Origin: a virus
Lineage: Duplodnaviria > Heunggongvirae > Uroviricota > Caudoviricetes
Reading direction: 5' to 3' (one strand)
Virus record (IMG/VR): IMGVR_UViG_2609459852_000004
DNA length: 24,873 nucleotides
Position numbers: made by a program. Numbering within the stretch: the first letter of the stretch is position 1; each line of letters starts with the position of its first letter. Below, in pieces: positions 15,001 through 18,000 of the stretch.

Positions 15001-18000
15001 GATGACTCGCCGTGAGATTGAGCGTGAAGTCTGTTTGTGGGGGCAGCAATGAGCAGGTTAACCGCGATTATCTCCGCTCTGGTTATCTGCATCATCGTCT
15101 GTCTGTCATGGGCTGTTAATCATTACCGTGATAACGCCATTACCTATAAAGAACAGCGCGATAAAGCCACGTACATCATCGCTGACATGCAGAAGCGTCA
15201 ACGTGACGTAGCAGAACTCGATGCCAGATATACAAAGGAGCTTGCTGATGCTAACGCGACTATCGAAAGTCTCCGTGCTGATGTTTCTGCTGGGCGTAAG
15301 CGCCTGCAAGTCGCCGCCACCTGTGCAAAGTCAACGACCGGAGCCAGCGGCATGGGCAATGGAGAAAGCCCAGGACTTACAGCAGATGCTGAACTCAATT
15401 ATTACCGTCTCCGAAGTGGAATCGACAAGATAACCGCGCAGGTTAACTACCTGCAGGAATACATCAGGACGCAATGCCTGAAATAATTTTTTTGCAAATC
15501 ACAAAGTCCATTTAATGAGCCTCGCGATGCGGGGCTTTTTGCAATAAATGCGTACCGCAACGCATGTTTTTTACACCGAACCTGCCCCTTTGGAATGGGC
15601 CTTTGAGGATACCAGTTAGTGCTGGCGAGCCTCGGTGGGCTGGTTTCCTGTGCGGCAAAGGTTCATTTCAAAGAGTAGGTACACGCTATGAAATCATTAA
15701 CCCTCTTCAATCAACCAATTCGTATCGGTGAAGATGGCATGATCTGCCTCACTGATATGTGGAAAGCCAGTGGTAAAAGTGAATCTGAATCTCCGTACCA
15801 CTACCTGCGAAACAAGCAGACCAAAGAGTTCTTAGCCGAGCTGGAGAAAAACCACGAATCTGTGGTTTTTACTGAGCGCGGTGTACACGGTGGAACATAT
15901 GGCGGGAAGTTTGTTGCTTACGATTATGCGGCTTGGTTAAACCCCGGGTTCAAGTACGCGGCCTATAAAGTCCTCGATGACTACTTCACCGGAGAACTTC
16001 AGCATCGCAACAGCTTAAGTGCGCAGCTCAACATGAAATGTCATGAGTTTGACCAGAAGAAAGACATGGCGAGCTTCTGCGGACAAGGACTGGCAGCATG
16101 GCGCTATACGAAGCCAGTGTTGGTCGCTGAGATTAACTCCCTGGCTAACCAGCTGCAGATTACGATCCCCGGGCTTCTGGGATGAGTGATCGTGTTATTG
16201 AATGCGCCTCCAGAGCGGGGCGCGACTTCTCAGAGTTCATGAAAGGCGAGAAGGGCATGATGGAAGCATTGGCCTCGGTGGATGAGTTTGGCGAGCAGCT
16301 GCGCCTCAACGGCTGTGTCAATCATCACTTTGTTAGCTACATGATGCGGAACTCGATCATGCAGGCATTCATGGACATGGCAAAAGCCGAGAGGAAAGAA
16401 GAGCGCCGGCGTAAGCGAGCGGAAGCAAAAGCGAAGTAGCCATTACAAAGCCTATCTACGGGTGGGCTTGATAATGGCTTATACCCTACACGGGATAACT
16501 TAACTGATATCCCTTTTAAAGGATAAAGGTCACATCATGCGCTGTATCGCCGCCGTATTCCCGTATTAACAGAGACCGTAGCCCGACGGGGAACTCCTTC
16601 TGCGCGAGTGTGCGGGAATAATCAAAAACGATGCACACCGGGGTTACCGGGTACACATATTTCATCATGCCAGCGAGTCCGGTTCTGGCACGGAAGAAAC
16701 CGGACGTTATGATTTAGTGCGGAAATATTTGTGTAGTGTTCTGAATGTTCTCAGTAAAGAGTAATGAATTATCAAAGGTATAGTAATACCTTTTGTTTTC
16801 GTGGATATTTGTAATCCATCTGAAAACCCCTGCTGTAGCAAGATTTTTCCTGTATTCGTAAAATGATAACTCTCCTGATTTGAATCCTTTTAAGGTGGCT
16901 TCTATAAGGCATTTATTTTTTGAAAATCTTACATTTACAACCTTACCCTGTCCTTTTATTAAAACCGTATTATCGTTTTCAAGAACAAGATGAATATTCT
17001 CTGTGGCTAAATAGTAAATGTAATGTGAGACATTGTGACGTTTTAGTTCAGAATAAAACCAGTGATAGTTTAAATTATTTCGCACTTTATCGAATATTTG
17101 TTTAAAAATGGCAACCTGAGCCATTGTAGTACCTTCCATGTGATATGAGGGGGGTAGTCTGCTCGATTATCTAAATTGCTTCAATCTGGTCTAACCTGTT
17201 TTCTGAGCAATTCAGTAATGTCACTCTTTTCTTTGTTTGCTTCAGGCGAAACTCTTTTTTCTGAGCACAGTCTCCGGCGGCAGGCTTCAATGACCCAGGC
17301 TGAGAAATTCCCGGACCCTTTTTGAACAAGAGCGATGTTAATTTGTTCAATCATTTGGTTAGGAAAGCGGATGTTGCGGGTTGTTGTTCTGCGGGTTCTG
17401 TTCTTCGTTGACATGAGGTTGCCCTGTATTCAGTGTCGCTGATTTGTATTGTCTGAAGTTGTTTTTACGTTAGGTTGATGCAGATCAATTAATACGATAC
17501 CTGCGTCATAATTGATTATTTGACGTGGTTTGATGGCCTCCACGCACGTTGTGATATGTAGATGATAATCATTATCGCTTTACGGGTCCTTTCCGGTGAT
17601 CCGACAGGTTACGGGGCGGCGACCTCGCGGGTTTTCGCTATTTATGAAAATTTTCCGGTTTAAGGCATTTCCGTTCTTCTTCGTCGTAACTTAATGTTTT
17701 TATTTAAAATACCCCCTGAAAAGAAAGGAAACGACAGGTGCTGAAAACGAGCTTTTGGGCCTCTGTCGTTTCCTTTCTCTGTTTTTGGCCGTGGAATGAA
17801 CAATGGAAGTCAACAAAAAGCAGCTGGCTGACATTTTCGGTGCGAGTATCCGTACCATTCAGAACTGGCAGGAACAGGGAATGCCCGTTCTGCGAGGCGG
17901 TGGCAAGGGTAATGAGGTGCTTTATGACTCTGCCGCCGTTATAAGATGGTATGCCGAAAGGGATGCTGAAATTGAGAACGAAAAGCTGCGCCGGGAAGTT

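What the first reader, a model, noticed from the sequence alone, without database searches (positions are those of the whole stretch)
15688..16439. Second KilA-N domain gene coupled to a small basic-tailed protein in the lysis-cos moron slot
A 165-aa KilA-N protein is translationally coupled (ATGA) to an 85-aa protein ending in a Lys/Arg/Glu-rich tail, bounded by tandem terminators upstream and an intergenic gap downstream, so it behaves as an independent cassette. KilA-N domains occur in antirepressors and in abortive-infection proteins such as BstA, so this could be an exclusion or anti-repression module rather than a structural gene.
Basis: inference. Interest (0 to 1): 0.45.

Follow-up and report, generated by a model that had tools for sequence, protein, structure and literature searches.

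The report
Rha-like phage accessory gene pair
This is a common, non-structural two-gene accessory module of E. coli lambda-like prophages, related to the P22 Rha regulator and not to the BstA defence protein; its function is untested, but it sits behind a conserved folded RNA leader, absent from Rfam, that probably limits its translation.

Summary
A 165-aa KilA-N protein (15688-16185) overlaps by ATGA an 85-aa protein with an Arg/Lys/Glu tail (16182-16439), between Rz and cos of an E. coli lambdoid prophage. The pair is common: HK620 hkbK/hkbL, Stx phages, and 525 of 5426 complete E. coli genomes.

The BstA idea fails. There is no sequence or profile similarity, no hit to the BstA model, and the domain layout and location differ. 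The closest relative is P22/BTP1 Rha, which has the same slot, the same C-terminal ORF11CD3 domain and the same upstream leader.

The 85-aa protein belongs to a narrow enterobacterial-phage family under strong purifying selection. It lies directly downstream of "Bro-network" genes of four different architectures. These sit after Rz, inside tail operons or in an immI region.

No promoter travels with the module. Instead it carries a roughly 115-nt leader (15573-15687) with two alternative, covarying folds. One of them pairs the Shine-Dalgarno sequence. The leader is absent from Rfam and also precedes P22 rha, HNH endonuclease genes and Bro-N ant genes.

Best reading: a late-operon, translation-gated, Rha-like nucleic-acid-binding pair. 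Its biological role is untested.

The parts
15517..15541 (+). Terminator-like hairpin with T-run that closes the S-R-Rz lysis module
   Evidence: RNA fold. Conserved in the window, HK620 and HK97 directly after Rz.
15548..15571 (+). Small hairpin ATGCGT/ACGCAT plus T6. It scores as a second terminator here and is the 5' hairpin of the conserved leader.
   Evidence: Terminator scan and fold. Other leader types have an equivalent hairpin (GCGC/GCGC, GCGCA/TGCGC) without a T-run.
15573..15687 (+). Structured two-state leader. Closed state: a long hairpin in which ACCUGC (15580-15585) pairs the SD GUAGGU (15675-15680), plus an 18-bp helix 15588-15605/15657-15674. Open state: a 5' three-way junction closed by CACCGA (15575-15580) pairing with UCGGUG (15632-15637).
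   Evidence: Folds. RNAalifold: 15 of 22 pairs compensatory. Covariance-model hit 15568-15690 at 110.8 bits, the only hit in the window. Covariation 0.327 and 0.334 against at most 0.18 for slid controls. At least 10 covarying versions of the closing helix. No Rfam match at E <= 1.
15688..16185 (+). Gene for the 165-aa KilA-N + ORF11CD3 protein, a Rha-like protein with a swapped N-domain
   Evidence: Pfam. PHROG 129 and 10441. AF2 model at pLDDT 85 with a helical hairpin at 86-156. C-domain matches BTP1 Rha at E = 1e-8 and 96% hhalign probability.
16182..16439 (+). Gene for the 85-aa three-helix protein ('p85', PHROG 875) with a conserved Arg-rich C-terminal helix; its start overlaps the upstream stop (ATGA)
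   Evidence: AF2 pLDDT 92. dN/dS 0.04-0.09. 227 of 242 loci have it -4 or +2 nt from an upstream ORF, which in nearly all loci is a Bro-network gene.
16438..16479 (+). Strong 3' hairpin directly after the stop codon, with no clear U-tract; a weak terminator or an mRNA 3' stabiliser
   Evidence: Fold: -35.7 kcal/mol for 16430-16530, z = -4.47. HK620 homology runs to about 16527.

Best explanation
The region is a late-operon accessory module of the Bro/Rha network, not a self-transcribed moron and not a BstA-type defence gene.

Shown:
- Gene 1 is a domain-shuffled Rha. It has a KilA-N DNA-binding domain in place of the pRha domain and keeps the ORF11CD3 helical hairpin. It sits in the Rha slot between Rz and the packaging genes.
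- Gene 2 (p85) starts on the stop codon of gene 1.
- p85 is a conserved three-helix protein with an invariant Arg-rich C-terminal helix.
- The p85 head domain recurs fused to T5orf172/MUG113 domains in other proteins.
- The module carries no recognisable promoter.
- It does carry a conserved leader with two alternative covarying folds, one of which pairs the Shine-Dalgarno sequence.

Inferred:
- The module is transcribed only when Q-modified RNA polymerase reads through the terminator hairpins after Rz.
- The nascent leader first forms the open three-way junction, which allows a short window of ribosome loading. It then refolds into the more stable long hairpin that hides the ribosome-binding site. 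Each transcript therefore yields only a little of a potentially harmful protein.
- p85 is made by termination-reinitiation in step with gene 1.
- The two proteins bind nucleic acid late in infection as a dispensable Rha-like modulator of phage or host DNA transactions.

The actual target is unknown.
For: Domains. Homology to the Rha C-domain. Same slot in BTP1 and P22. P22 rha carries the same leader at 99% identity. Covariance-model hits upstream of BTP1 rha, HK620 hkbK and HK97 gp60.

No sigma-70-like site on the + strand in 15487-15687. HK620 homology begins at window 15683. The module is always co-oriented with upstream late genes.

SD pairing in all five leader types. Both folds covary. 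The nascent-RNA minimum-energy fold forms the open state in types C, D and E, and the closed state is 7-18 kcal/mol more stable.

p85 adjacency and partner diversity. Purifying selection. Conserved E-E/D-R-R-R-K-R motif. Fusion relatives of the head domain.

Literature: P22 rha is described as a late-operon gene that harms lytic growth without IHF (PMC4936722). The BTP1 lysogen transcriptome lists only bstA, cI, pid and gtrA/C as highly expressed (PMC7067206).
Against: There are no expression, binding or phenotype data for this gene pair in the searchable literature.

The promoter scan covers only a sigma-70 consensus, so a weak or non-canonical promoter is not excluded.

In the window's own leader type (A) and in type B, the nascent-RNA minimum-energy fold did not contain the open-state closing helix. 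The alignment used for pair counts was fitted to a model that already contained part of the structure.

The leader and p85 are separable. BTP1 rha has the leader but no p85. The Rouxiella locus has p85 but no leader.

Nucleic-acid binding by p85 rests on composition and analogy alone. Fold searches were uninformative.
Confidence: 0.5

Rival explanations
1. Antirepressor module. The KilA-N/ORF11CD3 protein, with or without p85, binds and inactivates the repressor of this or of co-resident heteroimmune prophages, giving induction cross-talk.
For: The protein belongs to the domain-shuffling Bro network, which includes the known antirepressor domains ANT and P22_AR (PMC10111431). A p85 relative lies in a P22-like immI operon: Arc, Bro-N/P22_AR_C Ant, pRha-ANT, p85, then tailspike. 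There are weak PHROG hits to anti-repressor families. Several databases name Rha an anti-repressor.
Against: This protein has no ANT, P22_AR or AntA domain. Its position in the late operon behind terminators, with no promoter or LexA/Arc/Mnt-type control seen, would express it after the lysis decision. The Rha 'anti-repressor' label is annotation, not experiment.
Confidence: 0.2
2. Prophage-expressed superinfection exclusion or abortive-infection system, BstA-like in action though not in ancestry. The KilA-N protein would bind incoming phage DNA and p85 would act as a partner or self-immunity factor.
For: [quoted passage not shown] There is a weak local match to the untested PADLOC candidate PDC-S22 over the KilA-N core (E = 1e-8). 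The cassette is accessory and mobile.
Against: No detectable homology to BstA. No hit to the BstA model, which scores its positive control at 412 bits. BstA lies downstream of the repressor and is transcribed in lysogens. This module is in the late operon with a ribosome-site-hiding leader and no promoter. In BTP1 lysogens the rha-slot gene is not among the highly expressed genes.
Confidence: 0.1
3. Mostly a recombination cassette. The conserved leader (5') and p85 (3') persist because they act as homologous flanks that let the central Bro-type gene be swapped between phages. The proteins would then have no joint function, and p85 would act independently.
For: Four different central gene architectures lie between similar ends. 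Five loci keep p85 with no Bro gene. The leader also fronts unrelated genes such as HNH endonucleases and Bro-N ant.
Against: Compensatory base changes in the leader indicate selection on RNA pairing, not on DNA identity. p85 is under strong purifying selection at the protein level even where synonymous sites are saturated. The near-universal ATGA or +2-nt junction suggests co-expression.
Confidence: 0.12

Closest known systems
P22 / BTP1 / phi80 Rha (ORF201; Phage_pRha + ORF11CD3)
   Same: Same slot between Rz and the packaging genes in the late operon. Homologous C-terminal ORF11CD3 domain: 35% identity, E = 1e-8, hhalign 96%. Same type-A leader at 99% identity in P22. A natural chimera, pRha + ORF11CD3 + p85, exists.
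   Different: The N-terminal domain is KilA-N instead of Phage_pRha. P22 and BTP1 have no p85 gene downstream. The Rha phenotype, inhibition of phage growth in IHF mutants (PMC4936722), has not been tested for this protein.
HK620 hkbK/hkbL, and the Stx2 phage 1717/2851 'kilA' pair
   Same: The same gene pair: 94-98% nucleotide identity and a 100% identical p85 core.
   Different: Nothing material. These are annotated as 'KilA-N domain-containing protein' and 'hypothetical protein', with no function assigned.
HK97 gp60/gp61 and the Klebsiella siphovirus KilA-N + P63C / p85 pairs
   Same: Same leader family, KilA-N N-domain, p85 directly downstream, in late operons.
   Different: The C-terminal domain is P63C, not ORF11CD3. 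The Klebsiella copies sit in the tail-gene region. HK97p61 is frameshifted.
BstA abortive-infection protein (BTP1)
   Same: [quoted passage not shown]
   Different: No detectable sequence or profile similarity. 306 aa with a different C-domain. Located downstream of cI and expressed in lysogens. Has an aba DNA element. BstA does not reach Pfam KilA-N at E <= 0.01.
P22 Ant-type antirepressors (Bro-N/AntA + ANT/P22_AR)
   Same: Same shuffling network of phage regulatory domains. p85 relatives can follow ANT-domain genes.
   Different: No ANT or P22_AR domain here, and no Arc/Mnt control.
Kinetically gated leaders: MS2 maturation-gene leader and hok mRNA (from my own knowledge, not checked here)
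   Same: The ribosome-binding site is paired in the stable fold, while a transient 5' structure leaves it free on nascent RNA. That is the behaviour predicted for this leader.
   Different: No sequence relation. Here the element is a portable 5' module in front of many accessory genes in dsDNA phage late operons. Its function is untested.

Membership tests
KilA-N domain proteins (PF04383) | Significant match to the KilA-N profile above the curated cut-off | tested here: met
   57.6 bits against a cut-off of 23.8, residues 9-101.
ORF11CD3 domain proteins (PF10549) | Match to the ORF11CD3 profile above cut-off | tested here: met
   50.5 bits against a cut-off of 25, residues 109-161. Modelled as a helical hairpin.
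Rha family (P22/phi80 Rha) | Phage_pRha N-terminal domain | tested here: not met
   No PF09669 hit; KilA-N is present instead. BTP1 Rha has PF09669.
Rha family (P22/phi80 Rha) | ORF11CD3 C-terminal domain homologous to that of Rha | tested here: met
   BLASTP E = 1e-8, 35% identity. hhalign 96.4%.
Rha family (P22/phi80 Rha) | Late-operon position between lysis and packaging genes, behind the same leader | tested here: met
Rha family (P22/phi80 Rha) | Inhibits lytic growth in IHF-deficient hosts | not testable with these tools
   Phenotype known from the literature only (PMC4936722). No exact IHF consensus in the window.
BstA abortive-infection family | Homology to BstA (PADLOC BstA model, or pairwise or profile similarity) | tested here: not met
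   No BstA hit at E <= 1, while the control scores 412.6 bits. BLASTP E = 1.9. hhalign 0.3%.
BstA abortive-infection family | Located downstream of the prophage repressor and expressed during lysogeny | tested here: not met
   The gene lies between Rz and cos in the late region. Expression was not measured. In BTP1 the gene in the same slot is not among the highly expressed genes.
BstA abortive-infection family | Cognate aba self-immunity DNA element overlapping the gene start | not tested
   aba elements are specific to each homologue, so no search pattern is available.
P22 Ant-type antirepressors | ANT/KilAC, P22_AR_N/C, AntA or Bro-N domain | tested here: not met
   None found at E <= 0.01.
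Moron (Hendrix/Juhala sense: own promoter plus terminator inside a phage operon) | Own promoter | tested here: inconclusive
   No sigma-70-like site on the + strand upstream. HK620 homology starts 5 nt before the ATG. The scan is consensus-based only.
Moron (Hendrix/Juhala sense: own promoter plus terminator inside a phage operon) | Present or absent between otherwise syntenic genomes, with variable flanks | tested here: met
Rfam RNA families | Leader matches a curated covariance model | tested here: not met
   No hit at E <= 1 in 15300-17900, apart from a chance miRNA match at the cos-proximal hairpin.

The most novel reading that the evidence does not exclude
The 5' leader (15573-15687) would be a previously undescribed, portable two-state RNA gate. 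It would mark and time-limit translation of potentially harmful accessory genes (Rha, KilA-N and Bro-N proteins, HNH endonucleases) inserted in the late operons of lambda-, P22- and HK97-like phages. p85, whose invariant EERRRKR helix resembles the arginine-rich RNA-binding motifs of N proteins, would be an RNA-binding factor acting on this or similar RNAs. The cassette would then be an RNA-level regulatory unit rather than a DNA-level antirepressor.
Probability: 0.2. Interest if true: 0.7.

Novelty: new variant of a known kind. Interest (0 to 1): 0.5.

Why it matters
The gene pair is widespread: about 10% of complete E. coli genomes, Stx-converting phages, HK620, HK97 and HK022. Thirty years after Rha was described, the function of this class of late-operon accessory genes is still unknown.

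Placing the KilA-N gene as an N-domain-swapped Rha, and ruling out BstA, points experiments at Rha-type phenotypes rather than at defence screens.

Two by-products are directly testable:
- A narrow, strongly constrained 85-aa companion protein follows Bro-network genes whatever their domains.
- A covarying two-state leader RNA is present in textbook phages (P22 rha, HK97, HK620) but absent from Rfam. It could explain how phages keep toxic accessory genes at low dose inside a strongly transcribed operon.

If the leader works as proposed, it also offers a compact, portable part for limiting translation.

Tried and rejected
- BstA relationship. Tested by pairwise, profile and model searches, all negative.
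- Structure searches. The p85 model (PDB, BFVD) and the KilA-N model (PDB, Foldseek) gave no match at E <= 0.001.
- Metal site in p85. C8, C45, H48 and H49 are invariant in the family. C8 and part of the His pair are lost in the T5orf172-fused relatives, so I dropped the idea.
- IHF site. There is no exact WATCAANNNNTTR anywhere in the window. The WATCAA-like motif in some leader types lacks the 3' half.
- Sigma-70 promoter in 15487-15687: none found.
- Rfam: no family matches.
- H-type pseudoknot. The closing helix directly abuts the long helix with no linker, so I read the two as alternative folds, not a pseudoknot. This is inference.
- NCBIfam: nothing meaningful.
- Third protein-database search, with the P0189 head domain: nothing found.
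- Henthorn & Friedman 1995 (PMC177009) is not held.
- Literature searches for hkbK, PhiR49, ORF11CD3 and KilA-N gave no functional study of this pair.
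Full report
CONTEXT. The window is an E. coli lambdoid prophage. It is 98.5% identical to Escherichia phage PhiR49_1 over 15480-16720. The local gene order is:
- Q (12098-12496)
- a porin gene on the minus strand
- holin S (14340-14555), lysozyme R (14555-15052), Rz (15037-15486)
- the two ORFs of the finding
- a minus-strand DUF1398/DUF3950 pair (16714-17139 and 17181-17414)
- cosN, GGGCGGCGACCT, at 17614-17625
- Nu1 (17803-18348) and terminase A

OBSERVATION.
- The 165-aa ORF lies at 15688-16185.
- The 85-aa ORF lies at 16182-16439. It starts on the ATGA overlap and ends in AKAERKEERRRKRAEAKAK.
- A first KilA-N gene (276 aa, 10268-11098) lies upstream of Q. The two N-domains are 32% identical.
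- Two terminator-like hairpins lie at 15517-15541 and 15548-15571.
- A strong hairpin at 16438-16479 follows the second stop codon.

HOW COMMON IT IS. The pair is not rare.
- It is HK620 hkbK/hkbL. It is also in Stx2 phages 1717 and 2851, ECP1, Ss-VASD, the mEp phages, HK022 and, frameshifted, HK97.
- 525 of 5426 complete E. coli genomes carry it.
- I found no functional study.

GENE 1 IS A RHA VARIANT, NOT A BstA RELATIVE.
- BTP1 BstA shows no similarity: BLASTP E = 1.9 and hhalign probability 0.3%.
- The PADLOC BstA model scores BTP1 BstA at 412.6 bits but does not hit the window protein at E <= 1.
- BstA is 306 aa, lies downstream of cI, is transcribed in lysogens and has an aba element (PMC8585504; PMC7067206). 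None of this applies here.
- BTP1 and P22 Rha (Phage_pRha + ORF11CD3) occupy the same slot after Rz.
- Rha shares the C-terminal domain: 35% identity, E = 1e-8, hhalign 96.4%.
- A natural pRha + ORF11CD3 protein that is 96% identical in the C-domain is followed by the same 85-aa gene.
- The AF2 model (pLDDT 85) shows a KilA-N alpha/beta unit followed by a long helical hairpin at 86-156. Foldseek against the PDB found nothing significant.
- The only reported phenotype in this family is that phi80 and P22 Rha harm lytic growth when IHF is absent (PMC4936722).

GENE 2 (p85).
- It has no Pfam or NCBIfam family and belongs to PHROG 875, function unknown.
- The family is narrow. A profile search of 1.84 billion representative proteins found only 21 clusters. 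Its members come from E. coli, Enterobacter, Salmonella, Klebsiella, Citrobacter and a few other enterobacterial genera.
- It is strongly constrained, with dN/dS of 0.04-0.09. Conserved blocks are ECASRAGRDFSEF, GCVNHHF and an E-E/D-R-R-R-K-R motif in the tail.
- AF2 gives three helices (3-20, 26-42, 48-84) at pLDDT 92. No structural neighbour was informative.
- Its first ~57 residues are homologous to the N-terminus of proteins that carry a T5orf172/MUG113 domain: hhalign 96%, E = 1.5e-9. In both settings, then, the head domain is joined to a likely nucleic-acid-binding part. This last point is inference.

p85 IS A CONSTANT COMPANION OF VARIABLE BRO-NETWORK GENES. I examined 242 loci.
- In 239 loci p85 has an upstream ORF on the same strand. 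The junction is an ATGA overlap in 144 and a 2-nt gap in 83.
- The upstream gene is KilA-N + ORF11CD3 in 147 loci and KilA-N + P63C in 85. It is pRha + ANT in one locus. pRha + ORF11CD3 occurs in a further locus outside this set.
- The contexts differ. Most lie after Rz, with at least seven kinds of downstream neighbour. About 52 Klebsiella-type loci lie inside tail operons. One lies in a P22-like immI operon.
- Five loci keep p85 with no Bro gene.
- The module is therefore a mobile cassette in evolutionary terms, and p85 is not tied to any single partner domain.

NO PROMOTER, BUT A STRUCTURED LEADER. There is no sigma-70-like site on the + strand between Rz and the ATG. HK620 homology begins 5 nt before the ATG. 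The first hairpin belongs to the end of the lysis module. The ~115 nt before the ATG, however, are conserved in architecture across at least five sequence types (window/P22, HK620, HK022-like, Klebsiella, HK97).
- All types fold into a long irregular hairpin whose base pairs the Shine-Dalgarno sequence. In the window, ACCUGC at 15580-15585 pairs GUAGGU at 15675-15680, and an 18-bp helix joins 15588-15605 to 15657-15674.
- RNAalifold finds compensatory changes in 15 of 22 pairs.
- A second helix joins the nucleotides just 5' of the hairpin to its apical region. In the window this is CACCGA at 15575-15580 with UCGGUG at 15632-15637. It exists in at least 10 different covarying versions. Own-sequence complementarity reaches 6 bp or more in 84% of sequences, against 11% for cross-type pairs.
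- This helix abuts the long helix with no linker, so the two are best read as alternative folds.
- On an alignment of 76 covariance-model hits, the closed fold scores 0.327 and the open three-way-junction fold 0.334. Slid controls reach at most 0.18, and 0 of 500 shuffles reach either value.
- The same 5' columns covary with two different partners.
- A transcript truncated just after the closing helix adopts the open fold as its minimum-energy structure in three of five types. The closed fold is 7-18 kcal/mol more stable once the 3' half exists.
- Caveats: the sequences are related, part of the structure was in the model used to align them, and type A did not show the open fold in the truncated-RNA test.
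- No Rfam family matches.

THE LEADER IS WIDER THAN THE CASSETTE.
- It occurs once in the window.
- It precedes P22 and BTP1 rha at 99% identity. The annotated rha start in BTP1 (38644) lies inside the leader, and the ATG at 38713 fits better.
- In other phages it precedes HNH endonuclease genes, the Bro-N 'ant' gene between R and Rz, and several unknown genes.

MECHANISM (shown and inferred).
- Shown: the domain make-up, homology to Rha, gene overlap, co-orientation with late genes, absence of a consensus promoter, and the covarying two-fold leader that pairs the ribosome-binding site.
- Inferred: transcription comes only from Q-antiterminated read-through. In BTP1 lysogens only bstA, cI, pid and gtrA/C are reported as highly expressed, and late genes are low.
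- Inferred: translation is confined to nascent RNA before the leader closes, keeping the dose low.
- Inferred: p85 is made by reinitiation in step with gene 1, and both proteins bind nucleic acid.
- The biological target is unknown. I rate a Rha-like, dispensable late modulator at about 0.5, an antirepressor at 0.2, a recombination cassette without joint function at 0.12, and prophage-expressed exclusion at 0.1.

VERDICT. The finding is an ordinary, widespread accessory module whose closest known relative is Rha. The points of real interest are the constant 85-aa companion and, above all, the uncatalogued two-state leader RNA shared with P22 rha and other late-operon insertions.

Noticed in passing
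window 15573-15687; also L251 38593-38715, L252 2388-2508, L250 2049-2175, L196 672-792, L031 1551-1672, L178 4881-4983: A conserved, covarying two-state leader RNA precedes many late-operon accessory genes, not only this cassette. Examples are P22/BTP1 rha, HK97 gp60, HNH endonuclease genes and the Bro-N ant gene between R and Rz. It is absent from Rfam 15.
   Followed up: partly
L251 (BTP1, NC_042346) 38644-39249: The annotated rha start (GTG at 38644; the same applies to P22 ORF201) lies inside the conserved leader. The ATG at 38713, directly after the leader, is the more likely start and gives a 178-aa protein.
   Followed up: partly
L250 (HK97, NC_002167) 2904-3162: HK97p61 is a frameshifted copy of the 85-aa gene. 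Residues 1-54 are in one frame, and the C-terminal MRNSIMQAFMDMAKAERKEERRRKRAEAKAK is in another.
   Followed up: yes
window 16714-17139 (-) and 17181-17414 (-): A minus-strand DUF1398 (YbcV-like) and DUF3950 gene pair converges on the cassette in the same lysis-cos slot. This resembles P22 pid, which is lysogen-expressed, lies on the opposite strand and sits next to rha. The pair could be the truly prophage-expressed unit of this region.
   Followed up: no
window 12685-13827 (-): A 380-aa porin-like gene (annotated OmpD in PhiR49_1) lies on the opposite strand between Q and the holin gene.
   Followed up: no
window 17614-17625 and 17719-17781: A lambda-type cosN (GGGCGGCGACCT) and the long near-perfect hairpin upstream of Nu1 are present. 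The hairpin gave a chance Rfam miRNA match.
   Followed up: partly
L082 (JARKOR010000234.1): A 4-kb contig binned as 'Candidatus Nanosynbacter' carries this E. coli phage cassette, with p85 99% identical. This is almost certainly a binning contaminant.
   Followed up: no
L154, L157, L161 (about 3440-3752): In a few Klebsiella-type siphovirus contigs the 85-aa gene stands alone, just upstream of the tape-measure gene, with no Bro-network gene in front.
   Followed up: partly
P0189, P0192: Proteins of 164-179 aa join a p85-like N-terminal head domain to a T5orf172/MUG113 domain. This puts the p85 head in the pool of shuffling phage regulatory domains.
   Followed up: partly
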